From a virus (taxonomy: Duplodnaviria > Caudoviricetes): 64,000 bases of DNA. Each line of letters begins with the position of its first letter. Position 1 is the first letter of the stretch. Below the pieces are notes generated by a model. The model was given only the letters and a program-made list of their open reading frames with translations. It did not search any database and was not told the origin of the DNA. The stretch lies in IMG/VR virus record IMGVR_UViG_3300037041_001930. One strand, written 5' to 3'. This document shows positions 29,710-59,158 of this stretch, one piece after another. The translations under genes were made by a program, and so were the position numbers.

Positions 29710-30954
29710 TTACTTGCCCCATATCTTCTCACCCAGCATGGATGCCCCGGATCCCATGAAGCCATACCCGAGTGCGCGTGCTGCGACTCCACCAAGTGTT
29801 GGCTTGGTACTAATGCGTTGAGCACCCGCGATACCATGGGGGACCCCAACGATGTTGACTACCCTGGACCCCAGACCAGACGTAAACCCCTCACGGAGTC
29901 TATGAGCCGCTTGCTCCTGCGCGGAGAGTGCCTGGTGCTTTGTGATATCCGGCGTGTTCGCATTGAAGTCAAGTTTACGTTGACCTGAATCCGCGAAGCC
30001 CACCAGTTTCTCCGCATTGGCTTGTTGAATCGCCAAGTTGGGATCACTGTTGTTACCGAAGACTCGTTTGAGGATTGACTGCTTACTGGGGTCCGGAGTC
30101 ATCGGGCCCTTCGCGGTGCCCTGATTCACGGCGTTGACCAATTCTTTGTTATCAAACAAGTCTTTGTTGTTCAGGATTGCCAGGGGGTGACTGGGATTGA
30201 CCATAGAACCCGCGGCGAACGTGTGTACCGCATTTCCGGCTTCAAGGGGAGCACGTGGCCCCTTGTCACCCTCGAGTCCTGCTGCGGTGCCCATAGCACG
30301 CAGATGGGGCTCTGCGGCTTCACCGCCCTGATTGAGTTTGTTGATGAGACCGCCAGTGGTCTGGATACCATGATCGGGGCCACCCGGCAGTTTCTTCAGC
30401 GCAGGTACAGTGCCATGGAGGACCCCAAGACCAGCACCTAAACCAAAAGCACCAGTTCCAGTGGGGGTGTTGTCCTGCAACCACGCACTCATCTTCTCAC
30501 GGGAGTCCCCGAAGATGCGACCACCAAGAGCCTTGTCGATTTCTTTGCGGTACACGTAGGCGGCGCCAAGACCAGCGGCGAGACCACCACTGGCCAAGGC
30601 CAGGGTCAACCATTCCTTGGCACCCCAGCCCTTGTCGTCCTCCTCGTCCTCGGAGTCATCCGAGACGGGATACACGGCTTCAGCGGCACACTTGATAGCT
30701 ATGTCTGCAACGTTGTACGCTGTCCTCCCCGCTGACGCATAGTCATCTGCACGCCAGTCCTTCATGTCACGTGTTTTCCAGAAATCGGGGTCGGTTACCT
30801 TACCCATAACATTGGAAACCATACCCTTACTGCTACGCCTTTTTTTGGGACTAGCGTGATTCGTTTTACTACGTGTACAGTCACCGTCTGAATCGGGGTA
30901 AACCTCTTCAGCGGCCTGCTTTGCAAAGGCGTCGTGGTCAGCATGGGTTACCAT
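29710..30954 (-). CDS. Glycine-zipper, probably membrane-associating head protein
   Basis: KQAA and KCAA motifs, acidic run, then WLTLALASGGLAAGLGAAYVY; further GAFGLGAGLG and ALGYGFMGSG segments. Confidence 0.7.
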   Translation of the reverse strand: MVTHADHDAFAKQAAEEVYPDSDGDCTRSKTNHASPKKRRSSKGMVSNVMGKVTDPDFWKTRDMKDWRADDYASAGRTAYNVADIAIKCAAEAVYPVSDDSEDEEDDKGWGAKEWLTLALASGGLAAGLGAAYVYRKEIDKALGGRIFGDSREKMSAWLQDNTPTGTGAFGLGAGLGVLHGTVPALKKLPGGPDHGIQTTGGLINKLNQGGEAAEPHLRAMGTAAGLEGDKGPRAPLEAGNAVHTFAAGSMVNPSHPLAILNNKDLFDNKELVNAVNQGTAKGPMTPDPSKQSILKRVFGNNSDPNLAIQQANAEKLVGFADSGQRKLDFNANTPDITKHQALSAQEQAAHRLREGFTSGLGSRVVNIVGVPHGIAGAQRISTKPTLGGVAARALGYGFMGSGASMLGEKIWGK

Positions 30955-30956
30955 GT

Positions 30957-33385: not shown

Positions 33386-33388
33386 GGA

Positions 33389-35908: not shown

Positions 35909-38900
35909 TTAGCGTGGGGATCGCGGAGGGGAAGTCGGTAGCGGCGGCGTGCCATAAGACCCCGTGGTCTTCAGGGTATCCCCGAAACCAGTGGCCTTGG
36001 CGAGAGCGGGGACATAGGACGTCGAGTTGGGATCCGAGACCCTGGAGCGATGAACACTGTCCAGGAATCCTGAGGAGGTATAGAAACCGGATAGCCTGGT
36101 CTGCCAGTCATTGTCGTTGTAGACCCCGAGGACCCCCCGCTGCATCACGGGCTGGAAATCGGGTTCGTCGTCATGGGCGTCGACATCCTTGACCCCCCAC
36201 TTCTGGAGATCCCCGGCGACCTTCTTGGTAATCCGGGTTCCCGGGGTGTAGTGGAGCACGGGTTCCTCGAGGTACTTGCCGACCCCAGAGTTCGGAGCAA
36301 CCCGCTTGGTCCCTGCTCTGGCCTTGTAGGCCCCGGCGACTGAGTTGTAAGACGCGACATCATCGACGATGTGGTCACCGACCCCGTTGGGATTCGTGAC
36401 CTTGACCCAGTTGATGAGCCCGGCGACCACGGTCTCGATGTTGCGACGATGAGTCTTGATCCCTGAGTTCGTCAGAGCCTCCTGGAGCATCTCGGCGTAT
36501 CTGCGGCGGGCTTCCCCGACTCCCTTGAGCCTGACGAGCTGCTCGGGGTGCGGGGCGCCATCGCTGATGTCATCCCCGGCTTCCAGGGCATCTCCGGGCT
36601 TCACCACGGGTTCGACACCGGGGTGGAGATAGTAGTCGCGGTCATCCACGGTGACGAACTGGCCACCCTGGGGTGCCTTGCGGATCCCCTTGACGACACC
36701 ATCGACCTCGGCGAGTGGACCTGACTCCGGGAATGTTTCAGGAGATTCTATAACACGGTTGAGGTACTCGAAACCAGTACGAAGATTCTTTTTAGCCCCG
36801 ATGGCACCAGACTGGTGCTTTGAGTTACTTACGATCATGCCATTACCCAGCACGAATAGGTGGTCGGGGTGAGCTACCTCGATATCATAGACATGAAGAT
36901 GCCCGGCATCTGTCCTGTCTTCCTGACGCCACCACTCTTCGCGAGTAACGCTCTCAACTGCTGTCTTTATTCGGTCGGCCGCTCTCTCACACTTCACGCC
37001 AAATAACCGTATGCTTCTATAAAAACGAATAACATCCCGATATTTAGTAATGCAGACGTTGTAATGTCGTCTCTTTTTCTTCGAGTTGGAGCTGCTCTTT
37101 GTCGCATAGATGCCGAACCTAATGCGCAGCAACTCCATTACGCCATCGATGAGTTTCTCACTGCTAGATGCAAATGAAAACCCCATACCATCTTTTTTCC
37201 GACTAAATACTGAGCCGTCGGTGACAAACAACCCGGCCAGGAGCTCACTCACTGCCTGGTTATCCCATTGATTCACAAACGAAGGTATTTCTTTTTCATG
37301 CGCGTATTTCCCATAAAGACCCTCATCTCTGAACCACTGCAAAATTGGATTTTCAGTGACCGTGCGCATCACACGTCCCGTGATTGTATCCCTCACGATA
37401 CGCCCGTACGACCGCTGGCTCAACCTGGTCAACGCATAATAAATGGTCTGCCCCCCGCATATATGGAACTGTAAATCATGTGGTGCTAAGTAGCCATTGA
37501 GGTGGTCAATCTGAGTCTGGTCTGCACAGGAAAGATGGATCCCGGTCACTGATTCAGTGTAGCATCCGTCCCCGAGAAGCACCCCGAGCAACTTAGCTCT
37601 CCAATCGTAGATCAGATGATTTTCGCTAGATAGCCCTCCCTCACAACGTATTCCAGATGCTTTACTCATGTCTCCAATCGCGCACACGGCATCACGGTGC
37701 ATTTCCCCATACTCAGAACTATAGTGAATGTGCGTTAAAACCTTGTGGGCAGGGGTGCATGTAATGGTATGAAACGTATGGTGGCTACAGCTCTGTCTGA
37801 AACGATAAGTAACACACGGCTGTACACCATTATCAAACGTATGGGTAACCTCCACTGGAAAGGTCTTTCCGGAGATGTCTGCCCCAAGCACGAACTCACC
37901 AGGCTTTATGGTCTCTATCTGACGTAAGCTAAAGTCAGCCATGCGAACAAGCGTACCCTTGGATAGACAATTCAGGGACCCCTGCGACAACGGGGCGCCT
38001 ATGCTCTGGGCAGCCGCGATACCTATCGCATCCCCAATGTTACTGAGTTCTGTTCTGTCTCTGCGCCCTGCTGCGATACGTGAGATCCCCCCGTCTTCAG
38101 TGGGCTCTGTCATCGGGCTGTGAACCAAGATGTCCTCAACCCCATCCTCTGACAGAGATTCCAGTATGTCTGGTGTAATTCTCTCTCCGGCTTTATGTGC
38201 GCCTGCATCCCTGGCAAGCACCGCGCCGATGTTATCAGTGTCGCTGACCTTGGATGGTAGCCCAACTGGTAGCCTGGTCATGGGAGCAGTGTCTTTATTC
38301 ACGACGATACGATGCGCTGCGTTAGCCAACTTCTTGCTTAAAAACCCTGCGTCAGCTGTCGCGAGCTTGACCTCTAGCATACCTTTTCTCTGCCCATAGG
38401 TCCCTGCCCAGTATTCCACGGGATCCAGGCCTTCACTGAGGCTGTGGAGAATCGGGATCGGAACGATTTCATTGCGGTGGTCATTGACGAGACCAGATGC
38501 CCCACGAATCGCGTTGTAGTCTGACATCTTCCCACGGGCACCAGATTTAACCTGAAACCAATATGGGTTGTTCTCGGATTCACCGGACTCCTCGAGCGCT
38601 TTCTGCATCTTCTCGACCATTGGAAACATGACATCGGTGATGGCTTGCTTCTTAGCATCGGGGTCGAGGTCAGAGGTCTCAATGGCCATGACCCTGGAGC
38701 GCGCACGCTGTATCAGCTTTTTCTCTTTGTCTGTTTTCCTGAGCCCGCTGAGACTGACGCTGACACCCTCGGTGAACGCGGCATCCCTGCCGACATCGTT
38801 CATGGTCTTGATGACGTCTTTGTAGCGATCGGGGTACTTCTCGGCGATGTGCCGCAGAATCGACATCAGCTCTTTTTTGTCGATGGCTTTACCCCGGATC

Positions 38901-38959
38901 TGGAGTTCCGGGGGAAGGCTGTCATTGAGCAAAAGGGTGCCGACCGTGGTGGGGTCCAT
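35909..38959 (-). CDS. rpoC: DNA-directed RNA polymerase beta' subunit, C-terminal half, intein-containing
   Basis: TTVGTLLLN, NPYWFQVKSGARG, SLSEGLDPVEYW, bridge helix KLATADAGFLSKKL, trigger-loop GIAAAQSIGAPLSQ...SKH, GIKTHRRNIETVV; all align by eye with bacterial beta' regions E-H. Confidence 0.92.
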   Translation of the reverse strand: MDPTTVGTLLLNDSLPPELQIRGKAIDKKELMSILRHIAEKYPDRYKDVIKTMNDVGRDAAFTEGVSVSLSGLRKTDKEKKLIQRARSRVMAIETSDLDPDAKKQAITDVMFPMVEKMQKALEESGESENNPYWFQVKSGARGKMSDYNAIRGASGLVNDHRNEIVPIPILHSLSEGLDPVEYWAGTYGQRKGMLEVKLATADAGFLSKKLANAAHRIVVNKDTAPMTRLPVGLPSKVSDTDNIGAVLARDAGAHKAGERITPDILESLSEDGVEDILVHSPMTEPTEDGGISRIAAGRRDRTELSNIGDAIGIAAAQSIGAPLSQGSLNCLSKGTLVRMADFSLRQIETIKPGEFVLGADISGKTFPVEVTHTFDNGVQPCVTYRFRQSCSHHTFHTITCTPAHKVLTHIHYSSEYGEMHRDAVCAIGDMSKASGIRCEGGLSSENHLIYDWRAKLLGVLLGDGCYTESVTGIHLSCADQTQIDHLNGYLAPHDLQFHICGGQTIYYALTRLSQRSYGRIVRDTITGRVMRTVTENPILQWFRDEGLYGKYAHEKEIPSFVNQWDNQAVSELLAGLFVTDGSVFSRKKDGMGFSFASSSEKLIDGVMELLRIRFGIYATKSSSNSKKKRRHYNVCITKYRDVIRFYRSIRLFGVKCERAADRIKTAVESVTREEWWRQEDRTDAGHLHVYDIEVAHPDHLFVLGNGMIVSNSKHQSGAIGAKKNLRTGFEYLNRVIESPETFPESGPLAEVDGVVKGIRKAPQGGQFVTVDDRDYYLHPGVEPVVKPGDALEAGDDISDGAPHPEQLVRLKGVGEARRRYAEMLQEALTNSGIKTHRRNIETVVAGLINWVKVTNPNGVGDHIVDDVASYNSVAGAYKARAGTKRVAPNSGVGKYLEEPVLHYTPGTRITKKVAGDLQKWGVKDVDAHDDEPDFQPVMQRGVLGVYNDNDWQTRLSGFYTSSGFLDSVHRSRVSDPNSTSYVPALAKATGFGDTLKTTGSYGTPPLPTSPPRSPR
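36824..37969 (-). mobile_element. 382-aa intein with LAGLIDADG homing endonuclease, inserted in the beta' trigger loop
   Basis: Starts CLSKGT, block B TCTPAHKVLT, LLGVLLGDGC and LLAGLFVTDGS, block F VYDIEV..DHLFVLGNG, ends IVSN followed by Ser(+1). Removing it restores QSIGAPLSQGSLN|SKHQSG. Visibly more AT-rich than the gene's 3' part. Confidence 0.92.
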
Positions 38960-39177: not shown

Positions 39178-39178
39178 G

Positions 39179-40060
39179 TTACCTCTGCGCTAAAACGGGG
39201 GCAGTTGAACTCTTTGGTGCCGTGATCGCAGCTGTCGTGGCGCTCGCCGAGGGGTCTTCGACTGGTTGATTATTGACGGACACGATGCCTGACTTGGTAC
39301 CCTTGGCGACAGGTGGAAATGAGAGTGTCTTCTTAGGAGCACTCGCCGCAGACTTGGAGAGACCAAGTCGGGACAAGATTTCCTTGGCCATCTTCACCGT
39401 GTTGCCACCGATAGCGCTGGGGTCGAGTTGGCCACCCAGTGAACCCATGGGCCCACCGCCACCTTGGGGTTGGCCAGTGATAGCACCATTGGCCGTTGCG
39501 GCGGCGTCGGCATCCGACTTCTTGCCCTTGTTCTCTTGTTCTTTCTTCTTGCCTTCTTGTTCGAGCTCGAACTCGGCTTGAGCTTGTTCTTTGGTGCGGC
39601 CTTCACCAATGGAGGCCATGGCGCGTTCAACGATGCCCATGACGACATCGGCTTGTCCACGTGTCACGGAATCATCGGGACTACCCTTGACGTCAGGAGT
39701 TCCCGGAGCCGTGGGATCCGGGGCACCAGCGCTGGGGTCACCACCTGCGGCGGGGTCACCACCACCAATAGCACTCAGCATGTCGCCTTCGGGTGGCATG
39801 CCACCTGCAGCTGCGAGGTCACCGCCCGGTGGCATCCCACCCATGGCTGCAGGATCCCCGCCTGGAGGCATCCCACCCATGGCCATGGGATCACCGCCTG
39901 GAGGCGCCGGAGGAGCTCCTGCGGCGGCGGGGTCACCACCAGGAGGTGCACCACCAGCGGCGGCGGCGGGATTGCTGCCCGGAGGAGGCGCGGCCACAAA
40001 GGCCAGCTTCTGTGCGAACTCATTGAGGCTGCGTTGAAAGAGTCTTGCGGAGATGTCCAT
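39179..40060 (-). CDS. Low-complexity Pro/Gly/Ala/Met-rich head protein
   Basis: Repeats GGDP(A/M)A(A/M)GG(M/A)PP; KLAF, KMAK, KSAA motifs. Confidence 0.7.
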   Translation of the reverse strand: MDISARLFQRSLNEFAQKLAFVAAPPPGSNPAAAAGGAPPGGDPAAAGAPPAPPGGDPMAMGGMPPGGDPAAMGGMPPGGDLAAAGGMPPEGDMLSAIGGGDPAAGGDPSAGAPDPTAPGTPDVKGSPDDSVTRGQADVVMGIVERAMASIGEGRTKEQAQAEFELEQEGKKKEQENKGKKSDADAAATANGAITGQPQGGGGPMGSLGGQLDPSAIGGNTVKMAKEILSRLGLSKSAASAPKKTLSFPPVAKGTKSGIVSVNNQPVEDPSASATTAAITAPKSSTAPVLAQR

Positions 40061-40079: not shown

Positions 40080-41096
40080 TCACTTTGTGGCGGGGCCAGT
40101 CGCGGTTACCGGAGGTGTCGATTTGATTGCACCGTTTGTGGCGCTGGCCGGAGGTGCTGGGGGTGTGATCGGGACTACCGCACCGTTTGTCGCACTGCCC
40201 GGTGACTTACGTTGTAGCTGTGCCAACTCCGCTTTCAGGTCATCATTCGTCGGCAATTTAACTGGTGGAGCCCCCACGGGATCAGGTTTTAATAGCATGT
40301 TCATTGGATTTATGTTATGCGCTGCGTCGAATATCTCCGGTCCAGCTTTATTCAAGTCTACATCGTTGCCAGCCTGTGGCTGCTTTTCCGGCGCTGTCGC
40401 TGGGGTTAGTGCATCCTGCGCTTTACCAAGCCCTTCCCGAATCTGGGGGAATGCCTTGTCGACATGGGGTCCCGCGAAGTAACCCGCGGTTCCGCCGGCG
40501 AGGGCAGCGATGAGAGCATTGCGCCACTTGTTCTTCTTACTCAGGAGGGCAGCACCCCCACCGGCGAGAGCGGCACCAGTAACGGCACCGATATTGGCGG
40601 GGTCCTTGTAGAACGGGGTTGTCGGGGCGGCGTCTTGGGCAGTCTTCTTGCCAACAACCTTAGCAGGGGCCACCTTTGGTGCAGGGGCTGCTTTTGGCAA
40701 CACGGCTGGCTTCGTCGCCGAGCGCGGGGCCATCTTGGCGCCAAGTGCTTCGAGAAAATCCGGTGAAGTCCCCACTGCGTTGCCATCGAAGTCGGCACGT
40801 GATGCCGCCGCTGTTTTGGCGACATCCTTGGCACCTGCTCCAGAGAGAGCACCGAGGCCCTGGCGGATCTGGGGGACCGCTTTGTCGACATGGGGACCCG
40901 CGACATAACCAGCGGCACCCCCAGCCAAAGCAGCGATGAGGGCGTTACGCAACTTGTTCTTCTTACTCAAGAGAGCTGCGCCACCACCGGCGAGAGTGGC
41001 ACCAGCGACGGCACCGATATTGGCGGGGTCCTCATAGAAGGGGACTTCAGCAGCTGTTTTAGTCAGGCACAGGGCAAGAAGACGTGTTGGGCGCAT
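40080..41096 (-). CDS. Protein with a duplicated 64-aa glycine-zipper hairpin module
   Basis: PFY(E/K)DPANIGAV..ALAGGGAALLSKKNK.RNALIAALAGG.AGY.AGPHVDKA.PQIR.GLG twice (40851-41042 and 40425-40616), each preceded by KTA. Confidence 0.8.
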   Translation of the reverse strand: MRPTRLLALCLTKTAAEVPFYEDPANIGAVAGATLAGGGAALLSKKNKLRNALIAALAGGAAGYVAGPHVDKAVPQIRQGLGALSGAGAKDVAKTAAASRADFDGNAVGTSPDFLEALGAKMAPRSATKPAVLPKAAPAPKVAPAKVVGKKTAQDAAPTTPFYKDPANIGAVTGAALAGGGAALLSKKNKWRNALIAALAGGTAGYFAGPHVDKAFPQIREGLGKAQDALTPATAPEKQPQAGNDVDLNKAGPEIFDAAHNINPMNMLLKPDPVGAPPVKLPTNDDLKAELAQLQRKSPGSATNGAVVPITPPAPPASATNGAIKSTPPVTATGPATK

Positions 41097-41165
41097 GGTG
41101 GATTCCTACTATGGGTTATGGGATGACAGGATAACAACTGGATCGGAGACACCAAGATGGTGTGT

Positions 41166-48591: not shown

Positions 48592-51500
48592 GGTTTCTTA
48601 CCTCCCGCCAAGCCCCAAGAACGCAGTTTTAGATCAGTATTGTTGGCTAAGCCAGTCAGGCTCCATCTGCTCGCCTTTGGTTTACCAATGCGGTTTCCAG
48701 TCAGATATGCCAGCAGGGCCTCAAACTGGTCATCGTTGATGCCTTTGAAATAGGGGTCCGAGGCCTCGACACGAGATTTCAAAAAACTGGGCATGAAGTC
48801 ATGTGCGAGTTCAAGGCTGTTAAAGAATCTGGCGTTATCAGGGGACTTCATCCACTGCTGCCATTTCCCCTCGTCTGCCGAAGCCTGCCGCATGACTTCC
48901 AAGCGCTCCTTGACCACCTTGGCACGATAATCATCCATCTTCTTGGGATCCGCCTTGATCTGTGCGAGAAGATCTGGATCCGTGGGTGGTGGGATCTCAC
49001 CACCTGCGTTGTTCAAGGACTGATATCTCTGGTATGCCCCATAAGCGCCACCACCTAGGACAAGTGCCCCCATGATGGCGCCGGCCTTACCACCCATGAG
49101 CATGAGCACGAGACCCACGGGGATCGCGGCGAGGTCGAGGTTGTACTTTTGCGCCCAGTCCATGCCCTCTTGGGCCTTCGCCTTGGCCTGATCCCATACC
49201 GAGGGGGCCTGAGGAGGCTTCGTGGCATCGGGGCTGGTGGGTGTGGCCTGCGTCGTCGCTGAGACAGTCGTGCTGGTAGCCGTGGTCTGCGGTGCCTGTG
49301 TCGACTTCCGCTTGGCAGCCTGTGATTTCGCCACCGCATCTGACTTTTCCTGCTGGGTCAACGCAGGGGTCCCCGTGTTGCCACCAGTCCCAGGAGGGGG
49401 CTGGGGAGCCGACGGGGGTGTCTTGATCGAGTTTGTGTACGTCTTCCCCATGTCGCCGGCGTCAGGAGTTGCCGGAGGGGGCTGTGACGTGGGCTGTTTC
49501 TGCATCCCCATCATATTCTTCGCCCAGTCTATGGCGCCCTCAGCCAGAGGCCTCATCGGCTTCACGACGTTTTCGAGAGGGGTCCCACCATCAGCGGATT
49601 CCGCGGCGAGCTTGCACCCACGCCCCCACACCTTTGCGAAAGCCTTCTTTGGGTTGCCAATTACAGGCGGAGTATTCGAGACAACAGGTTTCACGGGTTG
49701 GATCTCCGTAGGCTTGACCTTAGCGGGTTCTTGGGGTAGGGGAACCACTGGGGCTTTCGGTGCCTCGACTTTAGTAAGATTTTTCCGGTAAGCCTCGTAA
49801 TCCTTTATGGCCTGTGCTCGGTTTCCACCTGCTCTCTTGTCCCAGTACGCCGAACTCCAGCTCTGCTCAGCGGGATCCCCTGGTGGCGTCTGTGGTGTCG
49901 AGTGACCCCTGAAGCCGCCTGGGAACATGTCACGGTACACCTTGGGGTTCTCGTGCATGTGAGTGATGACATCCTCCCGGGTCACCGGGCGTGCATTAGC
50001 ACCCTCACCAATGCTCTGAGTGGGTTTTCCATCAGCACCCATGATGTATTCAGGTGCGGGTTGAAAGGGGTCAGGGGCTTCGCCTGCTTTGGCCTGGTGC
50101 TGCCGCCAGTACGCATCCATGTTCTTGAATGTCTCCGGGGACTTCGCAGCCCAGAACTCGGGGTGCGCGGTCTGATACCTGGATACCCCGGTGAGGTAGA
50201 GGCCTGGGTTGGTAAGCGGGGAGTCGACTTGGTACCCACGACGGATGGCCTCGGGGCTCACCTGCATGATGCGGCCAGTGGTCTTATTGAAAGTCCACGC
50301 CGGCGCATTGTCGCCCTGGGGATCCCACTTCGAGGAGTCAAACCCATAGGCTTGTTCCTTGAACCCCTTGGGGGCCTCCTGGCCCTCGGCGAGGTCATGT
50401 GAGTTACCCTTGGCATCGACGTAGTACCTGCCCTGCACAGCCGGGGGTTCTACTTTATCAAAGCCATACTTCTCTCCAAGTTCCTGTAACAGTTTATTGG
50501 TTGCCTCTGGGTTTACGAAAGTGTTATCTTTGAATCTCTCAAATCCAGCAGCGCCTCCCAGGGTATGGCCGCCTTGAGACCGGACATCCTGGTTCAGGGC
50601 GTGCAGGGAAGCATTGGCACGTGTAAATGGCGCCAGGACTGCCTTGGCCGTGGTCTCCGGGAGTCTGGACAACTTGGCCTGGAAAATGGACTCAGCGTTG
50701 GGATCCTTGGGGTCGATGTCCAGGCGCTGATACGCCGCGGCTTTCGCGGCCTCCCTGCGGTCCTCGAGTACGATGCGTTGGTTCTTCAGGGAGTCACCCC
50801 CCATGGAATCAAACCCGTATCTGGAGTTCATGGGGTTACCGGGTCCCCCGAATGTCTTCCCGCCCCATGAATACTTGTCACTGGTGCGATCGCTGCCCCG
50901 GTACTCGACGAGGAGATCCCCGAGTCCGTTCTTCTTGAGATCATCTACGATCTCTTGTTTTCTCAGCGCACCTCGCTGGAGCATCTTGGGCTTCATGACA
51001 TCCGTGTAATCCGTGGTCTTCACCCTGGCCTTGGCCATGATCTGCTCAGGTGTGAGCCCCGTGGAATCCGTGATCAGCTTCGTGGTCTCCGGGGCCCCCA
51101 GTGCCTGGATGTCCTGGGGGTCCATTAGGGTGTCCAGGATACCCTGGACCCCGCGGTGGATGGCATGTGGGGAGTTCCGGGAGATATCGAACCGAGGCTT
51201 CTCGCCAAACCCTGCCCCAGTGGAGAAATCGTTAATCTGCTGTGTCGCCGGCGCAATCGCCGTGGAGGCCTGCGATAGCACTGAGGCGAGTTCGTCGTGG
51301 GTCTTCACGGACTCCAGGTTATTGACGATGCCATCAGTCTTGGACTGCCAGTGGGCCTGAGCACGTTGCGCCAACTGGTCCTTGTACGCCGCGGGGAGGT
51401 GCATGTATAACGGACTGGTGTCCAGGGCATCCCGCACCGTTGTCCTCACGCGATCATGAGTCGCCGCAACTGAGGTCCTCGCGATGTCCCTGAGATCACG

Positions 51501-54293
51501 ATCCCCGAGGACATTGAAGAGCCCCCTGAGCTGCCCCGCAGATTTATTCTGTTGTTCCCATGTCGAGGCATCGAGTCCAGGGGGTGCATTACCCCTGGGC
51601 TTCGAGGCCCCCGTGATCCTGGAGATCAAGGAGTCGTAGGGATTCCCGGCGCCTTTACCCAGGGTGTCGATGTCGATGACACCTGTGTTAAACGGCTCGG
51701 CTTCCTGCTTCATGATGTTGAATGCACGGTCCCCAATCGTGCTCGCCAACATCAATCTGAGATCTGGGGGGAGCCCAGCGAACAATGGGCTGTCTTTAAC
51801 AGTCCCATTCGCGAACTCAATGGCCCCCTGCATCAACTTGGCATCCACCAGCATCTTGGCGCCGCGTTTGTACCCGGCACCTAGCATGTTTAACTTGGAT
51901 TCATCACCAAGATTGTTGATATAGTTCTGTTTTCCCTGTCTTACATTAAAGGCTTGGAGAGGGGACAATGCAGTACCCCAGAAACCCATACCATGGCCAC
52001 CGTTTGCGAATGTGTTCTGGGCAACCTGAGCAATCTTCTCGTCTTCGTACCCCGTGGTATCCGTGAGCAGCCCATACGCCCATCTCCCGATATCCAGTGT
52101 GGACGAGACACCCTCCATGATTACGGCGCCAGCTGCAGTGTTCGCACTCAGAGCACGGATTCCCTTGAGGACAGAAGCTAGTCTAACAGCGGAGGATGCC
52201 CCAGCGGCGGCCCCACTACTCGGAGATCCCGTGAGGACTCTAGCAGTGGATTTCATGCGATCGAGAGCACCAGTGTAAGCCTTCCCTGCAGTAGCCGCGG
52301 GGTTCAGCACTGCGCCTGCAACGGACTTCGTGGCATCAATGGGGTGCCTGACGGTTTGATAAACCTTGTTCAGGATTCCCGTGGGGCTGGCCCCTGGGGG
52401 CGCACTGGCCTTCACGGCATCCTGGGTGGCCTTGTCGAGTCCACGCCACCAGAGCTGCTGGGCACCGAAATGTGCGGACATGTCCAGGGTCTGCTGGCCA
52501 ATGTTGAGAGCTGAACTCTTGATCCATTCAGATGTCGGGACATCTACGTTCGTGGGGTTGTTCCACCTGTTATAGATTGCCCCGCCAACGCCGGCTAGGG
52601 TGCCCCATAAAGGCATACCAATAAGGCTACCATTCCTGGACATCAGCGCTGACGCCATTATCCCAGCGTTCTGAGTCACGTTTCCGAAATTATCACGATC
52701 ACGAAGTTCTCGATAGAGATCAGACCCGGGTGGAATCTTTTTGTCCAGGATGGAGTTCACCCTGGCCTGGGCTTCCTGCACAGGTAACCCACGAACCTCG
52801 TGGAGTGCATCCTGCATCGCATTGAAGTGGTTGTGATAATTGATGACATTGGGGTCCCCCCCAACAATCCTAGCCCCCTTCTTATCGATCCGGTTTATGT
52901 TGAGATCAGTCGGCATGAATGGGGCTGCTACAGGAGTGCATGCCCCGAGTCTCGGCAAGAATAGTTCAACTGGTACGTCGAGAAAGTTGGAAAGCGAACT
53001 AGCGACTTCAGCGACGGGGCGTGTCCCCGAACTCACCATGTTATGGTGATCTTTGATTGCGCGTAAGGTGTGGTCAACTTGGAGTTGAGCCCGGATCCCA
53101 GACTCAGATTTTACCCTCTCATAAACTCGAGTCGCGGCTGCAACAGCATTATCCAGGAACTCTGGGTTCTTCTCACTCCACTGCTGGATCTCAGCCGGAG
53201 TCTCCGGGATCCCCATCTTGAGGAACTCAGTGGCCATGGTATGCGCGGGGTTCAGGGGATCCCCAGCCGCAGCCTTCATCCCAGTGGTGACATCGGCGAT
53301 GTAGCCAGCACGCAGCTTGGCCCCGAGATTCCGAGATTCCGGGTGATCTGGGTTATCTACGAACGCAGACAACATACCCTCGGGGTTCAGCCCCTTATTC
53401 GCGGTGTCCACGCGGTACGCCTTCAAGGCGTCGGCAAGATTTGATGGTTTCCCTGTCCTCTCGGATTCAATGATCGCTGCCTGCGCTGACTTCAGGAGCA
53501 TGTAATCATCGGTGTTGGGTTCACCATTCTCTAGGTGTAATAAAACTGGAAGTCCAGTTTTCCTATGAGTGTGGTAGTCCACTGCGGTATCAATGATGTC
53601 TCTGGCAGTCTTGTCCGCAGAAGCACGGTTCCAGATGTCACCAGTGGCACCAGTATCGGCTTTCCAGAATCTAATGATTTTATCAGTGGGTGCCCCAGAC
53701 GCCTTTCCGACTTCCCAGGCCTGGGCAGCAAAGTATCTCTTGGCCATCCAGGCCTTCGCGGCCTCGTCAGGATTCGGCCCATCCAGTTTCGGAGGCGGTG
53801 CCCATCTGGAATCAAACTTGAACTCGCCATCCTTGGCCTGGGCATCACTGGCCAACATGTCGACGTATTGGTCGCGAACCCCAGGTGACAGTGTCTTTGG
53901 TATCGCGGCGAGATCAGGGGTCATCGTGGCGGCACCATCGTTGACCTGCTTGGTGAGCTCCTTCGAGGGAGTCTTGCCGCCTGCGATGGTATCGACGAGA
54001 TCACTGACCCCTGGGATCCTCATGGCTCCAATAGAAGTCAGGGCCGCTCGAGCCTTATCTGGGTAATTCTTGATCCAGATGTAACCCGCGGCGCCAAGAC
54101 CACCGATGGCAGCCAACCAGATCCATGTATCGGACTTTTCTTCATCCTCGTCGTCATCCGGGGTCCGGGAGTTCGCGGCGAGTTTACGTGTCTTACCATG
54201 CCCAAAGAAATTGGGCGTGTTATTGCGGAGTTCATCAATAGGAAAATGAGCGCGTCGATTCTTGACGCGCTTGATCTCCGACTTTGGTTTCAT
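48588..54293 (-). CDS. 1901-aa protein, probable internal-head/ejection protein (tape-measure-like alternative)
   Basis: Follows the portal with an ATGA overlap. KLAA near the N-terminus followed by an acidic run and TM-like WIWLAAIGGLGAAGYIWI; a second KLAA before a Pro/Thr-rich linker and a C-terminal hydrophobic hairpin. Confidence 0.7.
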   Translation of the reverse strand: MKPKSEIKRVKNRRAHFPIDELRNNTPNFFGHGKTRKLAANSRTPDDDEDEEKSDTWIWLAAIGGLGAAGYIWIKNYPDKARAALTSIGAMRIPGVSDLVDTIAGGKTPSKELTKQVNDGAATMTPDLAAIPKTLSPGVRDQYVDMLASDAQAKDGEFKFDSRWAPPPKLDGPNPDEAAKAWMAKRYFAAQAWEVGKASGAPTDKIIRFWKADTGATGDIWNRASADKTARDIIDTAVDYHTHRKTGLPVLLHLENGEPNTDDYMLLKSAQAAIIESERTGKPSNLADALKAYRVDTANKGLNPEGMLSAFVDNPDHPESRNLGAKLRAGYIADVTTGMKAAAGDPLNPAHTMATEFLKMGIPETPAEIQQWSEKNPEFLDNAVAAATRVYERVKSESGIRAQLQVDHTLRAIKDHHNMVSSGTRPVAEVASSLSNFLDVPVELFLPRLGACTPVAAPFMPTDLNINRIDKKGARIVGGDPNVINYHNHFNAMQDALHEVRGLPVQEAQARVNSILDKKIPPGSDLYRELRDRDNFGNVTQNAGIMASALMSRNGSLIGMPLWGTLAGVGGAIYNRWNNPTNVDVPTSEWIKSSALNIGQQTLDMSAHFGAQQLWWRGLDKATQDAVKASAPPGASPTGILNKVYQTVRHPIDATKSVAGAVLNPAATAGKAYTGALDRMKSTARVLTGSPSSGAAAGASSAVRLASVLKGIRALSANTAAGAVIMEGVSSTLDIGRWAYGLLTDTTGYEDEKIAQVAQNTFANGGHGMGFWGTALSPLQAFNVRQGKQNYINNLGDESKLNMLGAGYKRGAKMLVDAKLMQGAIEFANGTVKDSPLFAGLPPDLRLMLASTIGDRAFNIMKQEAEPFNTGVIDIDTLGKGAGNPYDSLISRITGASKPRGNAPPGLDASTWEQQNKSAGQLRGLFNVLGDRDLRDIARTSVAATHDRVRTTVRDALDTSPLYMHLPAAYKDQLAQRAQAHWQSKTDGIVNNLESVKTHDELASVLSQASTAIAPATQQINDFSTGAGFGEKPRFDISRNSPHAIHRGVQGILDTLMDPQDIQALGAPETTKLITDSTGLTPEQIMAKARVKTTDYTDVMKPKMLQRGALRKQEIVDDLKKNGLGDLLVEYRGSDRTSDKYSWGGKTFGGPGNPMNSRYGFDSMGGDSLKNQRIVLEDRREAAKAAAYQRLDIDPKDPNAESIFQAKLSRLPETTAKAVLAPFTRANASLHALNQDVRSQGGHTLGGAAGFERFKDNTFVNPEATNKLLQELGEKYGFDKVEPPAVQGRYYVDAKGNSHDLAEGQEAPKGFKEQAYGFDSSKWDPQGDNAPAWTFNKTTGRIMQVSPEAIRRGYQVDSPLTNPGLYLTGVSRYQTAHPEFWAAKSPETFKNMDAYWRQHQAKAGEAPDPFQPAPEYIMGADGKPTQSIGEGANARPVTREDVITHMHENPKVYRDMFPGGFRGHSTPQTPPGDPAEQSWSSAYWDKRAGGNRAQAIKDYEAYRKNLTKVEAPKAPVVPLPQEPAKVKPTEIQPVKPVVSNTPPVIGNPKKAFAKVWGRGCKLAAESADGGTPLENVVKPMRPLAEGAIDWAKNMMGMQKQPTSQPPPATPDAGDMGKTYTNSIKTPPSAPQPPPGTGGNTGTPALTQQEKSDAVAKSQAAKRKSTQAPQTTATSTTVSATTQATPTSPDATKPPQAPSVWDQAKAKAQEGMDWAQKYNLDLAAIPVGLVLMLMGGKAGAIMGALVLGGGAYGAYQRYQSLNNAGGEIPPPTDPDLLAQIKADPKKMDDYRAKVVKERLEVMRQASADEGKWQQWMKSPDNARFFNSLELAHDFMPSFLKSRVEASDPYFKGINDDQFEALLAYLTGNRIGKPKASRWSLTGLANNTDLKLRSWGLAGGKKP

Positions 54294-56161
54294 TGGGGAG
54301 CTCCGCCACCAGGGGCCTGACCTCCCTGCCCACCCTGGAGAAGCATTTGCTGGCCCTGTGACGAGGCCTGCTGACGTATTTCATCCAGCTTGGCCTTGAC
54401 GAGGCCATGGAGATCTTTGTTGCCTTCGCGAAGCGCCTTGAGCTGCTGCTTGCGGTCGTACTCGGGCATCCCGGCTAATTGACCCGCGATCTGCTCGGCC
54501 TGGGAAGCCATGCCGCCCAGGGTACTCGCATTTGCGCCGCCACCTGCGGGGAGTCCCCCCATAGGAGATCCACCCATGGGCATACCAGGAGGTGGAGGTG
54601 CACCGGCACCGCCTTGCTGCTGGGCCTGCTGTTGCTGCAGCATCGCCGAGGGGCTCTGGGCTCCGGCGAGGGCACTGACAGCTCCCATCTCCTGATCCTT
54701 GACCGCCTTGTCGTCCTGCTCCTTCTGGAGCTCCTGGATAAACTCTTGATGCTTGAAGACTTTCCTGGCCTCGTCGCCGGCGAGGACACCCAGGGGTTCC
54801 AGCGCGGTCTGAGGACTGATCTGATTCGCAGCCATGAGCTGCATGAGAATGTTCTTGCGTTCCTGGTCGTCAGCAATGGTACTCCGCTGAATCCGGACAT
54901 CGGTTTCCTCGAGACCAAAGTTGCGTGCGGCAACTTTAACGATCCATTGCAGGATCGAGGTGTACATCGCGGGCACCGCAGACCACGCGGACTCAAACAG
55001 ACGCAGGGCCATCGGAGCCGCCTGTGCTGTCAGTGTCATCTGGTGGTACTCAAGTGGGACATTGCACTGGTTCAAGGATTCCTGCTGACGGAACTTCAAC
55101 TTGTCCGCGGGGAGGAGATCCTTGCCCTCACCACCCAGGAACTGGTAGTTCACGGGGTACGGTGCGGTGTGGTAAGACATGGGTTCAGCGCGATGTGCAT
55201 TGATGATACGATTCATACCACCAACGAAGTTGTCCATGCCATGCTGGATCATGGGGTCGTTCTGATTCGCCATTGCTGGAGAAATCAAACGGAGGCCCAG
55301 GGTGTAGTCCGATGCAATGGCTTGGTCGGCACGGTTCAGGATCTGCTGCAACCAGAATGTCCGGAAGTTGGAGATCGAGGCGGGGACACCCCAGCCACGA
55401 GTCCGCATCCCCGAGATCACGGGTTCATCGACGTGGTAAATCATGTCCTCGTCGAAGAGGAGACGACCATTAACCGCGACGGCCTCGAGGACCTCGATGG
55501 GAGTGTCATCAATGAAGATGCGGGCCTTCGACATGATGTCTTGACGGAAGTCGTTGGGGATCCTCCACCAAATGTTCTTGCGCTGGGACCAGAAGTTCTG
55601 GGCGAGCTCGATCTCGAAGGGGGAGTACCGGAGGACACGGATCCGGGAGATATCGGGATCCTTGCGATCCCGGAGCACGAAGTCCTGGGTATTCCCACAG
55701 GAAGGGCATGGCTTCTTGCGGAGCCAGCGGACCCCTCGCTGAGAAGTCAGATCAATGGTGTAATCGACATGCTTGATGGGCTGCTCGAAGTAGCAGTGTG
55801 GGCATGACAGGTTACGCTTGAATGGTAAGTATATGGACAGGAAGCAGTTACCATAACATAGGAAATCGGATCCTGCCGCCTTTAGCTCGCGGCTATAGTT
55901 GAGATGCTTCTGGAAGAGATCCTTGAACTCGGACTCCTCATTCTCGGAGAGTGCCGGGAATTGAACATTGGTAATGAAATGTGCGATGACACGCCCGAAA
56001 GCAGAACGATAGTTGCCATCGGTGAGCCAGAGGTACTGGGCCCACCACATGATGAGCTCATGGTTAGTGGGCATCACCGTGGAGGCATAGTCGAGCCAGG
56101 GGACATGGAGTTGACGTACGGCCTGGCCGCGATCCCCACCATTGACATTGAGATTCGCCAT
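54290..56161 (-). CDS. Portal protein with Zn-finger insert and Q/G/P-rich C-terminal tail
   Basis: GSDFLCYGNCFLS, IRVLRYSPFEIE, IYHVDEP..GWGVP, QILNRADQAIA, NVPLEY and coiled-coil segments follow the generic portal layout; CPHC...CPSC insert; first gene of the head module. Confidence 0.75.
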   Translation of the reverse strand: MANLNVNGGDRGQAVRQLHVPWLDYASTVMPTNHELIMWWAQYLWLTDGNYRSAFGRVIAHFITNVQFPALSENEESEFKDLFQKHLNYSRELKAAGSDFLCYGNCFLSIYLPFKRNLSCPHCYFEQPIKHVDYTIDLTSQRGVRWLRKKPCPSCGNTQDFVLRDRKDPDISRIRVLRYSPFEIELAQNFWSQRKNIWWRIPNDFRQDIMSKARIFIDDTPIEVLEAVAVNGRLLFDEDMIYHVDEPVISGMRTRGWGVPASISNFRTFWLQQILNRADQAIASDYTLGLRLISPAMANQNDPMIQHGMDNFVGGMNRIINAHRAEPMSYHTAPYPVNYQFLGGEGKDLLPADKLKFRQQESLNQCNVPLEYHQMTLTAQAAPMALRLFESAWSAVPAMYTSILQWIVKVAARNFGLEETDVRIQRSTIADDQERKNILMQLMAANQISPQTALEPLGVLAGDEARKVFKHQEFIQELQKEQDDKAVKDQEMGAVSALAGAQSPSAMLQQQQAQQQGGAGAPPPPGMPMGGSPMGGLPAGGGANASTLGGMASQAEQIAGQLAGMPEYDRKQQLKALREGNKDLHGLVKAKLDEIRQQASSQGQQMLLQGGQGGQAPGGGAPQ

Positions 56162-56173
56162 GGGGTCAGCGCC

Positions 56174-56371: not shown

Positions 56372-56434
56372 AGGAGTTCCCAATCTAGGTAGCAGCGGTG
56401 TCCCAGCGTACCCCGGGGGGCAAATCGGACAAGG

Positions 56435-57316: not shown

Positions 57317-57350
57317 CTTGTATTCCTTGTACGACAAGGCTAGATGGGGT

Positions 57351-58214
57351 TCACTGAGCGTCAAGCCCTGCTATGTAGCCGTCGAGGTCGCTGCCATTGA
57401 TCTCGGTGAGTAAAACACGCTCCCAGAGCACACGGACTCCATTGAGATTCCGCTTGGCTTCTGGGGTGTCACCCTCGAGGTCGGCATAGGGAACGAAGGC
57501 ATCAAGGGTGCCCGGATCAGTCTCCTGTGTCGAGACTATCCAGTTGTGGTTCCCTGCCGTATTGGTGTCGAAAGGATGCAACAGTGTGAAGTCCGCGAAG
57601 AGGAGGCTGCGAGGTGCCACCCCAGCGGCGACGAGATCCTGGAGCATGGTCTTCATGGGGTCAATGTTGGGGCGACCAATGATATTGATCCAGATGTTCC
57701 GAGTAATCGCGGCACAGGCCTTGAAGAAGGCGACCTGATCCCCGGTGATCAGAGACTTGCCATCATAGGCGTCGTGGAGGATAAAATCGTAGGGGTAATT
57801 GTCACGCGGGCTCCCCGCGATGAGGGGGATCATGGCGAGGGCATCAGCGGTGAATACCCGAAGACGGCCGGACTCGATGGCAGCATTGACCTCAGGGAAT
57901 CCTTGCTTGCACAAATGGACTGCCACGGGGTCAATTTCGATGACATCGATGCGGACCCCAGGGAAGTTGGTGAGCACGGCGACGGCACCGGCACCACTGC
58001 CGAGACCAATCATGAGACCTCTCCCCCTTGGGTTCATCGCTGCGGCGGCAAGCCACCCCAGGGTGTACGGGGATGCCGAGACGACACCGGGGCCGCCGTG
58101 CTTAGACGGGGGATCCAGGAACGCGGCACCCTGGACCTGCCCATTGATTCGGAGCTGGCGTGCGCCATTGACGTCGATGACATCGACGACGCCGAACATA
58201 CCCGGGGCCATCAT
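57351..58214 (-). CDS. Spermidine-synthase-like / class I SAM-dependent transferase
   Basis: RQLRINGQVQG, GLMIGLGSGAG, IDVIEIDP, VFTADAL, YDFILHDAYDG. Confidence 0.8.
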   Translation of the reverse strand: MMAPGMFGVVDVIDVNGARQLRINGQVQGAAFLDPPSKHGGPGVVSASPYTLGWLAAAAMNPRGRGLMIGLGSGAGAVAVLTNFPGVRIDVIEIDPVAVHLCKQGFPEVNAAIESGRLRVFTADALAMIPLIAGSPRDNYPYDFILHDAYDGKSLITGDQVAFFKACAAITRNIWINIIGRPNIDPMKTMLQDLVAAGVAPRSLLFADFTLLHPFDTNTAGNHNWIVSTQETDPGTLDAFVPYADLEGDTPEAKRNLNGVRVLWERVLLTEINGSDLDGYIAGLDAQ

Positions 58215-59158
58215 GCCGACTGCAACTCAGGATGGGTATGGTCAGCAGGGGCGTACTTCCGACGTAGTTTAGTGGGTCTGACATCCCCACTGTAGGGGTC
58301 ATCAGATGACCGACGTTTCTTTGTAGACTCCACAGGACGATTAGACATTTTGTATAAGAGATACAATAGTCCAGCAGTGGCTACACCAGCAGTACCCAGG
58401 ACAAGAGGTGATGTCAAAGTTTTAACAGCATCGCCCATGTTTTCGACACCACGTGATGTCCGCTCACCAGTGGCGGCTACATCTTTAGAAAGTTGTTCAA
58501 CATTCTTCGCCGTATTTGCCGTACTTGTCAAGCCTTCAACAACTGGTTTATTTGATTCCTCGATGAGTTTCTTGGAGGCTCCAGCTGCCCCCTCGAAAGC
58601 ATTGGCTGCACTACTAATTGACTTCGCAGATCTAGCGGCTTCCAACCCAAGACCAATTCCAGCTTTAACACCGATATTCTTCATGATTGCGTCAGTTCCA
58701 GCCCTTGATTTCAAGGGGTCAAGAATGGCAAGCGCACGCTGGGGATTCGCAGATGAAATCTCGAGCTGTCCCCCCTTCGTAGTGGGGTGATCAATCCGCA
58801 TCGTAAATGCCCCTGGATTTTTGGGGTCTGGTGACCAGATATTAGATTTAGATAGATCGGGTTGTCCTTTACCTGCTTTTAAGGCATCTTGGAGTTCGCT
58901 GTGTCCAGCGTGTAAGTGGCCCCCACGCATTGCGTGTCGCTGCCCCTTCGTAGTCGCCAGTGCCCCTATCGCAGAGAAAGTTGCGGCTTGCAGTGGATCG
59001 ATGGGTTGTCCACGAATCTTATCAATGGCAATGGGAATGGTGCCACCAGCTACACCTGTGGCCACTGGCCAAATGATGTCACGGAGTGCCGCCGCCGCCT
59101 CCTTTTGCATGGCCACTTTACGAGTGAGATAAAACAACATGATCTGTGCTGGGCTCAT
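58211..59158 (-). CDS. Glycine-zipper/TM protein with N-terminal KVA/KEAA leader
   Basis: MSPAQIMLFYLTRKVAMQKEAAAA; hydrophobic segments incl. LVLGTAGVATAGLLYLLY; AT-richer than neighbours; ATGA overlaps at both ends. Confidence 0.75.
   Translation of the reverse strand: MSPAQIMLFYLTRKVAMQKEAAAALRDIIWPVATGVAGGTIPIAIDKIRGQPIDPLQAATFSAIGALATTKGQRHAMRGGHLHAGHSELQDALKAGKGQPDLSKSNIWSPDPKNPGAFTMRIDHPTTKGGQLEISSANPQRALAILDPLKSRAGTDAIMKNIGVKAGIGLGLEAARSAKSISSAANAFEGAAGASKKLIEESNKPVVEGLTSTANTAKNVEQLSKDVAATGERTSRGVENMGDAVKTLTSPLVLGTAGVATAGLLYLLYKMSNRPVESTKKRRSSDDPYSGDVRPTKLRRKYAPADHTHPELQSA

What the first reader, a model, noticed from the sequence alone, without database searches (positions are those of the whole stretch)
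29710..59158. At least seven glycine-zipper hydrophobic proteins in the head module: an ejected membrane channel or compartment?
The 414, 338, 314, 255, 242, 1901 and 315-aa proteins have GxxxG-rich hydrophobic helices without signal peptides, often directly after a KxA motif, so cleavage would expose them. Known parallels: T7/P22 ejection proteins form trans-envelope conduits, and chimalliviruses build an early membrane vesicle containing the virion RNAP. Inference: these proteins form an entry conduit or protected early-transcription compartment together with the neighbouring RNAP.
Basis: inference. Interest (0 to 1): 0.72.

Follow-up and report, generated by a model that had tools for sequence, protein, structure and literature searches.

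The report
Glycine-rich greasy phage head proteins
An uncultured 217-kb phage encodes, around its portal, capsid-protease and own RNA polymerase genes, a set of fast-evolving proteins with conserved glycine-rich, weakly greasy helices and a shared N-terminal tag; they are most likely packed in the head and shot into the host, but membrane action is unproven.

Summary
All seven named proteins carry uncharged Gly/Ala-rich hydrophobic segments: 14, against 1.1±1.0 in composition-preserving shuffles. The segments stay conserved where the rest of the protein diverges, and they recur in relatives with 25-45% identity.

They are only marginally hydrophobic, unlike the one classical membrane helix in the window. 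Five of the seven start with a leader ending K-x-A-A. K-x-A-[A/S/G] is enriched only in the head module (z = 5.4). In the 255-aa family (128 cluster representatives) the two best-conserved lysines are both K-x-A sites, and one sits in a flexible linker just before a hydrophobic hairpin.

The block sits between portal, a protease-like gene and the capsid gene, interleaved with a fused beta-beta' RNA polymerase. That polymerase's homologue is the most abundant protein in Salmonella phage Arash virion preparations.

Best reading (0.45): these are protease-processed internal head or ejection proteins whose glycine-zipper helices act on the host membrane at entry.

A chimallivirus-like vesicle is not supported: the complete relative has one RNA polymerase set and no phiKZ internal-head family members.

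No virion, cleavage or membrane data exist for this phage. This scan noted the same pattern earlier in other Arash-related genomes. It is a new variant of a known kind.

The parts
58211..59158 (-). 315-aa protein. It has an N-terminal leader (K-V-A at residues 14-16), Gly-rich helices at aa 28-45 and 251-270, then a basic tail and a conserved C-terminal end.
   Evidence: It is only 26-31% identical to G001/G002, while its neighbours are 82-93% identical.
54290..56161 (-). Portal protein (623 aa).
   Evidence: Weak hits to phrog_64 and PF05133. Homologous to the Arash gp204 portal, E 1e-55.
48588..54293 (-). 1901-aa protein: a conserved N-terminal module, a variable centre of about 1400 aa, and a conserved C-terminal hairpin domain.
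   Evidence: No Pfam, PHROG or PDB sequence match.
54072..54128 (-). N-terminal Gly-zipper helix of the 1901-aa protein (aa 56-74). It follows K-L-A-A (aa 37-40) and an acidic run.
   Evidence: The first 100 residues are 84-93% identical in five relatives.
49023..49139 (-). C-terminal hydrophobic hairpin of the 1901-aa protein (aa 1719-1757).
   Evidence: It is the only part recognisable in G003 (a 400-aa protein) and in L033 (a 429-aa protein), at 45-47% identity.
47863..48591 (-). 242-aa protein with Gly-rich helices at aa 54-74 and 89-100. It is the first gene of a conserved trio upstream of the RNA polymerase.
47437..47859 (-). 140-aa protein, not hydrophobic. It is the middle gene of the conserved trio.
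46660..47427 (-). 255-aa protein with three conserved uncharged Gly-rich segments (aa 10-27, 84-103, 184-208). It founds a family of 128 cluster representatives.
   Evidence: AF2 model: pLDDT 78, long helices.
46915..46923 (-). K169-x-A171 of the 255-aa protein, a candidate processing site in a low-confidence linker before the C-terminal hydrophobic hairpin.
   Evidence: K is 95% and A 92% conserved in 83 sequences, the best-conserved of 21 lysines. The linker 157-173 has pLDDT about 50.
42110..46657 (-). RNA polymerase beta fused to the N-terminal part of beta' (1515 aa).
   Evidence: PF00562, PF00623 and PF04565. About 29% identical to Arash gp206 over 97% of the length.
41166..42110 (-). 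314-aa protein with a leader (K-T-A-A at aa 9-12) and one Gly-rich segment (aa 85-103). It is an inserted cassette.
   Evidence: Absent from G001 and G002. Flanked by a 32-nt direct repeat at 41127-41158 and 42134-42165.
40080..41096 (-). 338-aa protein: a leader (K-T-A-A-E at aa 13-17), then two copies of a helix / KKNK loop / helix Gly-zipper hairpin (aa 25-70 and 167-212).
   Evidence: Sub-threshold match to PF13488 Gly-zipper_Omp.
39179..40060 (-). 293-aa low-complexity protein with PGGDPAA repeats and a leader-like N-terminus. It is not hydrophobic.
35909..38959 (-). RNA polymerase beta' C-terminal part, carrying a Hint/LAGLIDADG intein (1016 aa).
   Evidence: PF04998, PF14528 and a faint PF05203 hit. 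G002 lacks the insert.
29710..30954 (-). 414-aa protein: a duplicated leader (K-Q-A-A-E, then K-C-A-A-E), an acidic run, and Gly-rich helices at aa 115-135, 166-186 and 387-408.
28305..29849 (-). Prohead-protease-like protein (514 aa).
   Evidence: phrog_18299 'head maturation protease', E 1.9e-8. Homologous to Arash gp222. No Pfam match.
26767..28302 (-). 511-aa Ala/Gly/Glu-rich scaffold-like protein with the same kind of leader (K-R-A-S at aa 18-21) and many K-x-A sites.
24671..25609 (-). Major capsid protein (312 aa), with K-A-A-A at aa 25-28.
   Evidence: Homologous to the Arash gp226 major capsid protein. 99% identical in G001 and G002.

Best explanation
These are internal head proteins of a roughly 217-kb jumbo phage distantly related to Arash. 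They are made late as soluble precursors.

How they most likely work, as inference:
1. Most are loaded into the prohead through a short amphipathic N-terminal leader ending in K-x-A-A.
2. They are cut at K-x-A sites by the prohead protease encoded in the same block.
3. The mature pieces keep conserved glycine/alanine-rich helices that are only weakly hydrophobic. They could therefore stay soluble in the capsid beside the DNA and the packaged RNA polymerase.
4. At infection they leave through the tail as extended helical proteins and insert into the host cytoplasmic membrane, as hairpins that pack through small residues. There they help DNA and polymerase to cross, or anchor them.
5. Variable middle parts, and enzyme domains in relatives, are cargo carried by these modules.

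Shown here: the segments, their conservation, the motif enrichment, the leader, the synteny with the polymerase, and the fast and modular evolution.

My odds for each step: located in the prohead and cleaved, about 0.65; kept in the virion and ejected, about 0.5; inserted in the membrane, about 0.35.
For: Segment statistics and conservation:
- 14 segments against 1.1±1.0 in shuffles.
- The segments are kept in G003, L033 and 83 members of the 255-aa family.
- In the 1901-aa protein the hydrophobic ends are 71-93% identical while the centre is 27-28%.

Marginal hydrophobicity: +1.7 to +5.4, against -5.6 for a true TM helix.

K-x-A motif:
- K-x-A-[A/S/G] occurs 52 times in the G002 head module against 25.5±4.9 in shuffles. 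The rest of the genome has 43 against 51.
- In G002, six leaders place the K of K-x-A-A at residues 12-14. Leaders of the same pattern occur in the window, G001, G003 and L033.
- K145 and K169, both K-x-A, are the best-conserved of 21 lysines in the 255-aa family. K169 sits in a low-pLDDT linker before the hydrophobic hairpin.

Context:
- A protease-like gene lies in the block.
- The order portal, 242, 140, 255, RNA polymerase is kept in three distant lineages.
- The Arash polymerase homologues gp206 and gp216 top the virion MS list. The Arash head-module Gly-rich proteins gp221 and gp224 were also detected (PMC10585845).

Evolution: the seven are 26-89% identical to G001/G002, against 92-99% for portal, capsid protein and polymerase.

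Cargo-like relatives: G002 has a 351-aa protein with leader, HELAH motif and C-terminal Gly-zipper. G003 has a 999-aa protein with six Gly-rich segments and a NUDIX domain.

Precedent: N4 gp51 and gp52 are ejected with a virion RNA polymerase, have predicted membrane helices and form pores in bilayers (PMC13434306).
Against: - There are no virion proteomics, cleavage mapping or membrane data for this phage or any phage that carries these families.
- The Arash proteins are analogues, not homologues, and the Arash MS lists 116 proteins, so it is not selective.
- No sequence or fold match to any known ejection protein.
- Pfam glycine-zipper families are hit only below threshold.
- The phage is probably a myovirus like Arash, where a tail tube already crosses the envelope, so a podovirus-style conduit may not be needed.
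- The trio 242/140/255 lacks the N-terminal leader.
- The protease call rests on one PHROG hit with no Pfam support.
Confidence: 0.45

Rival explanations
1. Assembly-only core or scaffold parts. The Gly/Ala-rich helices make the proteins stick to one another and to the scaffold inside the prohead, like the T4 core proteins or the phiKZ inner body. K-x-A cleavage then removes or trims them, and they never act on the host membrane.
For: The scaffold-like 511- and 171-aa proteins carry the same leader and many K-x-A sites. Small-residue helix packing also works in soluble bundles. The AF2 model of the 255-aa protein is made of long helices with coiled-coil-like matches only. The hydrophobicity is marginal.
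Against: Uncharged stretches of 18-28 residues, conserved across a family of 128 clusters, are unusual for scaffolds. Basic residues follow most segments, and hairpin loops such as KKNK are membrane-like. Modular cargo such as NUDIX and HExxH domains, and a swapped centre, fit delivered proteins better.
Confidence: 0.2
2. Late membrane proteins of the infected cell. They insert into the cytoplasmic membrane of the producing cell and anchor portal or prohead initiation there (as in T4 head assembly, which starts at the membrane), or they serve in exclusion or lysis control. They are not virion parts.
For: Sub-threshold resemblance to glycine-zipper 2TM and holin families. Some genes lie next to the portal gene. 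The 338-aa leader looks a little like a short signal peptide.
Against: The segments score positive on the insertion scale, unlike the real TM helix of the 373-aa protein. The leader also occurs on non-hydrophobic and scaffold-like proteins. K-x-A enrichment ties the set to protease substrates. A 1901-aa protein with a swapped centre is hard to explain as an anchor.
Confidence: 0.12
3. The conserved trio 242/140/255 is a set of accessory or specificity subunits of the phage RNA polymerase, and the glycine-rich helices are subunit interfaces.
For: The trio lies directly upstream of the fused beta-beta' gene in every lineage examined. Jumbo-phage polymerases are known to have non-canonical extra subunits (PMC7598289, listed; the point itself rests on my own knowledge).
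Against: Arash and Vibrio phage D69 have the same polymerase layout but no detectable trio. Three uncharged Gly-rich segments per 255 residues are not a feature of known polymerase subunits. The conserved K-x-A sites point to head processing.
Confidence: 0.08
4. A chimallivirus-like early membrane vesicle. The ejected proteins remodel host lipid into a closed compartment that holds the genome and the polymerase.
For: Chimalliviruses inject virion RNA polymerase and internal proteins into a lipid vesicle, and how that bilayer is shaped is unknown. Many membrane-like proteins sit beside a virion-type polymerase here.
Against: G002 has a single polymerase beta match, not a virion plus a non-virion set. 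No PF12699 protein passes the cut-off. The relatives are Arash-like, not chimalliviruses. Chimallin itself was not searched for.
Confidence: 0.05

Closest known systems
Schitovirus (N4, DEV) ejection proteins gp51/gp52 with the giant virion RNA polymerase (PMC13434306, PMC11445570)
   Same: Proteins encoded in the virion block and packed with a virion RNA polymerase. They have predicted hydrophobic helices and no signal peptides, and they act on membranes after ejection. In N4 they form pores in bilayers.
   Different: No sequence or fold similarity. N4 is a podovirus with a single-subunit polymerase. This phage is probably a myovirus with a fused multisubunit polymerase. It has many more such proteins, with glycine-rich, weaker hydrophobic segments.
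T4 capsid-targeting sequence and internal proteins (IPI-III, Alt), cut by the gp21 prohead protease (own knowledge)
   Same: A short N-terminal leader ends in a protease site. Unrelated and fast-changing cargo proteins share the leader. The genes lie in the head-assembly block.
   Different: The motif here is K-x-A-A(-E), not (L/I)-x-E. The leader is 12-14 residues and differs in sequence. T4 internal proteins are not hydrophobic. Cleavage is not shown here.
Podovirus ejection proteins T7 gp14/gp15/gp16 and P22 gp7/gp20/gp16 (PMC8954989, PMC8605104)
   Same: Internal virion proteins that are 'conformational gymnasts'. They are helical, lack a stable compact fold when modelled alone, and build a trans-envelope path.
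   Different: No homology. Those phages need a conduit because the tail is short, and that need is not evident here.
phiKZ/Goslar inner-body and injected proteins (Pfam PF12699) with virion RNA polymerase (bioRxiv 10.1101/2024.03.24.586471; 10.64898/2026.04.21.720040)
   Same: A jumbo phage with protease-processed paralogous head proteins that are injected with DNA and the polymerase.
   Different: None of the seven matches PF12699. There is one polymerase set instead of two. The phiKZ proteins are not described as hydrophobic.
Pfam glycine-zipper membrane hairpins (PF13488 Gly-zipper_Omp, PF13441 Gly-zipper_YMGG, PF05433 glycine zipper 2TM)
   Same: A helix-loop-helix of Gly/Ala-rich uncharged residues, clearest in the two repeats of the 338-aa protein.
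   Different: Scores are 15.5-19 bits against cut-offs of 24-29. Those families are small bacterial envelope proteins, many of them lipoproteins.

Membership tests
Pfam glycine-zipper families (PF13488, PF13441, PF05433) | Profile score above the curated gathering cut-off | tested here: not met
   The 338-aa protein scores 15.5 bits against PF13488 (cut-off 25). The G001 homologue scores 19.0 (PF13488), 18.5 (PF13441, cut-off 28.9) and 15.9 (PF05433, cut-off 24.2). The other six have no hit.
phiKZ-like internal head proteins (PF12699) | Match to the PF12699 profile above 27 bits | tested here: not met
   None of the seven hits it. Only the 171-aa scaffold-like protein and its G001/G002 homologues give 17-19 bits.
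Chimallivirus early-infection system | Two multisubunit RNA polymerase sets (virion and non-virion) | tested here: not met
   There is one PF00562 match in the complete 216-kb relative G002.
Chimallivirus early-infection system | Chimallin shell protein | not tested
Phage ejection / internal virion proteins (functional class) | Encoded in the head-assembly block | tested here: met
   The genes lie between the portal, protease-like and capsid genes.
Phage ejection / internal virion proteins (functional class) | Present in purified virions and released into the host | not testable with these tools
   The only data are for analogous, non-homologous Arash proteins gp221 and gp224 in a permissive MS list.
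Phage ejection / internal virion proteins (functional class) | Sequence or fold kinship to a characterised ejection protein | tested here: inconclusive
   There are no PHROG, Pfam or PDB sequence hits. Foldseek and VIA searches with the model of the 255-aa protein gave only generic long-helix matches with Z below 5.
T4-type capsid-targeted internal proteins | Shared short N-terminal leader ending in the prohead-protease site | tested here: inconclusive
   A shared leader ending in K-x-A-A, with K at position 8-21, is found on 28 ORF entries (many of them homologues of one another) across the window, G001, G002, G003 and L033. Targeting and cleavage themselves cannot be tested here.
T4-type capsid-targeted internal proteins | (L/I)-x-E cleavage motif of the gp21 protease | tested here: not met
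   The recurrent motif is K-x-A-[A/S/G], often followed by E or D.

The most novel reading that the evidence does not exclude
A widespread clade of phages with a fused beta-beta' virion RNA polymerase ejects a dedicated set of glycine-zipper proteins. These assemble in the cytoplasmic membrane into a platform or pore, through which the polymerase and genome enter and at which first transcription takes place. It would be a myovirus counterpart of the N4 transcribing ejectosome. A new K-x-A protease code would arm the membrane-active helices only inside the capsid.
Probability: 0.15. Interest if true: 0.8.

Novelty: new variant of a known kind. Interest (0 to 1): 0.5.

Why it matters
How large proteins such as a multisubunit RNA polymerase travel from a phage head into a cell, and what meets the membrane first, is open for jumbo phages.

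This block offers a defined and widely conserved candidate set:
- one family with 128 sequence clusters, always next to the polymerase gene;
- a simple sequence grammar of leader, K-x-A site and glycine-rich helix, testable by virion proteomics and bilayer assays;
- a possible portable tag for loading foreign proteins into capsids.

If the proteins turn out to be assembly parts only, the result is ordinary.

Tried and rejected
- PHROG and Pfam scans of all seven proteins and their neighbours found no family for the seven.
- tblastn of the 1901-aa protein against 50,697 phage records found no match.
- The PDB sequence search of the 1901-aa protein and the profile search with the 255-aa family found nothing meaningful.
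- Three ESM Atlas look-ups gave scores of 0.83 or below, or no usable hit. These are leads only.
- The AF2 model of the 242-aa protein with 8 sequences had pLDDT 43 and was not used.
- Fold searches with the 255-aa model (PDB Foldseek, BFVD, VIA wide, Atlas) gave no match above noise.
- hhalign of the 242 and 255 families against Arash gp221 and gp224 found no homology.
- The 140-aa protein shows no similarity to the small genes before the polymerase in Arash and D69.
- The homo-tetramer job on residues 1-245 of the 255-aa protein returned 'no answer'. It counts neither way.
- No whole genome is held for the window, so the complete relative G002 was used instead.
- Reading the leaders as Sec signal peptides or lipoboxes was rejected. 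Their hydrophobic runs are too short or absent, and the same leader sits on scaffold-like proteins.
- The 287-aa protein's Gly-rich hit is a Rossmann GxGxG of a spermidine-synthase-like fold, not a zipper.
Full report
**What the window is.** All long ORFs lie on the minus strand. In transcription order the region of the finding reads:
- a Nudix/HAD protein (696 aa), the 315-aa protein, a spermidine-synthase-like protein (287 aa) and a 309-aa protein;
- portal (623 aa), then the 1901-, 242-, 140- and 255-aa proteins;
- RNA polymerase beta fused to the first part of beta' (1515 aa), then the 314-, 338- and 293-aa proteins;
- the rest of beta', carrying an intein (1016 aa), then the 750-, 108-, 310-, 499- and 414-aa proteins;
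- a prohead-protease-like protein (514 aa), scaffold-like proteins (511 and 171 aa), a 203-aa protein, the major capsid protein (312 aa), and tail genes with collagen-like fibres.

The nearest cultured relatives are distant. They are Salmonella phage Arash (a myovirus, 180.8 kb) and Vibrio phages D69, D148 and D181, at about 30% identity for the polymerase. Close uncultured relatives exist:
- G002 is a complete 216-kb genome with terminal repeats.
- G001 is a 72.8-kb fragment.
- G003 is a 103-kb fragment with 40-50% identity.

The window's own contig is 217,040 bp.

**The observation.** Each of the seven proteins has uncharged Gly/Ala-rich hydrophobic stretches.
- By one fixed rule they hold 14 such segments, against 1.1±1.0 in 500 shuffles. 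None of the shuffles reached 14.
- The other 37 proteins hold fewer than their shuffles do.
The one classical membrane helix in the window, in the 373-aa protein at 19261-20382, scores -5.6.

So the segments are real but only marginally hydrophobic. That suits proteins which must stay soluble until some later event.

**Conservation shows the segments matter.**
- Between the window, G001 and G002, the portal, capsid protein and polymerase are 92-99% identical. The seven are 26-89% identical, and the 314-aa gene is absent from both relatives.
- Within the diverged proteins the hydrophobic modules are the conserved parts. In the 1901-aa protein, residues 1-100 (leader, acidic run, helix) are 84-93% identical in five relatives and residues 1701-1850 (hairpin domain) are 71-97%. 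The 1400-residue centre falls to 27-28% between two types.
- That C-terminal hairpin domain is a separate protein with its own leader in G003 (400 aa) and in L033 (429 aa).
- The 315- and 414-aa proteins likewise keep the leader and the flanking helices while the middle varies.

**A shared grammar.**
- K-x-A-[A/S/G] occurs 52 times in the G002 head module, against 25.5±4.9 in shuffles (z = 5.4). In the other 183 predicted proteins it is at the shuffle level, 43 against 51.
- 28 ORF entries across the window, G001, G002, G003 and L033 start with a leader that ends K-x-A-A/S. Many of them are homologues of one another. Hydrophobic residues sit at -6, -3 and -2, and Glu or Asp often sits at +4. 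In G002 the K is at residue 12-14 six times.
- Four of the seven have this leader (414, 338, 314, 315), and the 1901-aa protein has K-L-A-A at 37-40. The scaffold-like 511-aa protein has it too.
- Arash head proteins show similar K-x-A-[A/S/G] sites near their N-termini.

**The 255-aa family.**
- An exhaustive profile search found 128 cluster representatives, 98 of them at E below 1e-10.
- In an alignment of 83 members, three uncharged small-residue-rich segments are conserved.
- Of the 21 lysines of the window protein, the two best conserved are K145 (82%, with Ala at +2 in 84%) and K169 (95%, with Ala at +2 in 92%). Both are K-x-A.
- AF2 with this alignment gives pLDDT 78 and pTM 0.38. The model has long helices, and a low-confidence linker at 157-173 holds K169 just before the C-terminal hydrophobic helices at 174-213.
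- Distant members again lie directly upstream of the fused polymerase gene, behind homologues of the 242- and 140-aa proteins and a portal. This holds in L032/L033 (69% GC) and in a third contig.

**Links to virions.**
- In Arash, the polymerase homologues gp206 and gp216 are among the most abundant proteins in virion preparations.
- gp218, the homologue of the 750-aa protein, and gp222, the protease homologue, are also detected (PMC10585845).
- Arash gp221 and gp224 are small Gly-rich head-module proteins, also detected. They are not homologous to the window proteins.
- That study lists 116 proteins, so this support is weak.

**Modular cargo.**
- G002 has a 351-aa protein absent from the window, built of a leader, an HELAH motif and a C-terminal Gly-zipper helix.
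- G003 has a 999-aa protein with six Gly-rich segments fused to a NUDIX domain.
- The 314-aa gene of the window is an insertion bracketed by a 32-nt direct repeat.

Such gain, loss and domain swapping fits delivered proteins better than fixed structural parts.

**Interpretation.** I read the set as protease-processed internal head proteins whose glycine-zipper helices act after ejection, most likely on the cytoplasmic membrane. The closest working precedent is N4, where gp51 and gp52 leave the capsid with the virion polymerase, carry predicted membrane helices and form pores (PMC13434306).
- Membership in any known family fails or cannot be tested.
- The chimallivirus-type vesicle is unlikely: G002 has one polymerase set and no PF12699 proteins.
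- Rivals that remain open are assembly-only core parts, late membrane anchors in the producing cell, and polymerase accessory subunits for the trio.

**Earlier notes of this scan.** The same pattern was recorded in other Arash-related genomes (e1-5377192, e1-5360725), with similar cautious verdicts. Those notes agree with this report but are not independent evidence.

Noticed in passing
window 41127-41158 and 42134-42165: A 32-nt direct repeat (88% identical, 1007 nt apart) brackets the 314-aa gene. The gene is missing from G001 and G002, so it looks like a recent insertion that copied the 3' end of the polymerase gene.
   Followed up: yes
window 35909-38959; G002 145031-150958; G001 29104-31959: Insertions sit at different places in close relatives. 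The window and G001 carry a Hint/LAGLIDADG insert in beta'C, which G002 lacks. G002's beta-beta'N gene is 1975 aa against 1515 aa in the window. G001's portal is 951 aa against 623 aa.
   Followed up: partly
window 30680-30954 (aa 1-92 of the 414-aa protein): The window's 414-aa protein has about 76 extra residues between two copies of the leader end (K-Q-A-A-E-E-V-Y-P and K-C-A-A-E-A-V-Y-P). G001 and G002 have one copy.
   Followed up: partly
window 39179-40060 and 26767-28302: The 293-aa protein and the scaffold-like 511-aa protein share PGGDPAA-type low-complexity repeats.
   Followed up: no
window 19261-20382: A 373-aa protein in the tail block holds the only strongly hydrophobic, classical transmembrane helix of the window (aa 58-76).
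   Followed up: no
G002 142041-143096; G003 28418-31417: Relatives carry enzyme-like cargo on the same modules. One is a 351-aa protein with a leader, an HELAH motif and a C-terminal Gly-rich helix. The other is a 999-aa protein with six Gly-rich segments and a NUDIX domain.
   Followed up: partly
window 57351-58214: A spermidine-synthase/methyltransferase-like protein (PF01564, E 1.6e-4, just below cut-off) sits inside the head block. It is conserved in G003 and L033.
   Followed up: no
G002 whole genome: There is only one RNA polymerase beta match and no Sigma70_r2 match. Arash, by contrast, annotates two sigma factors, one of them found in virions.
   Followed up: partly
window 3836-16148: Four large collagen-like, Gly-rich tail-fibre proteins lie here (994, 344, 1442 and 1303 aa). 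One of them has RCC1-like repeats.
   Followed up: no
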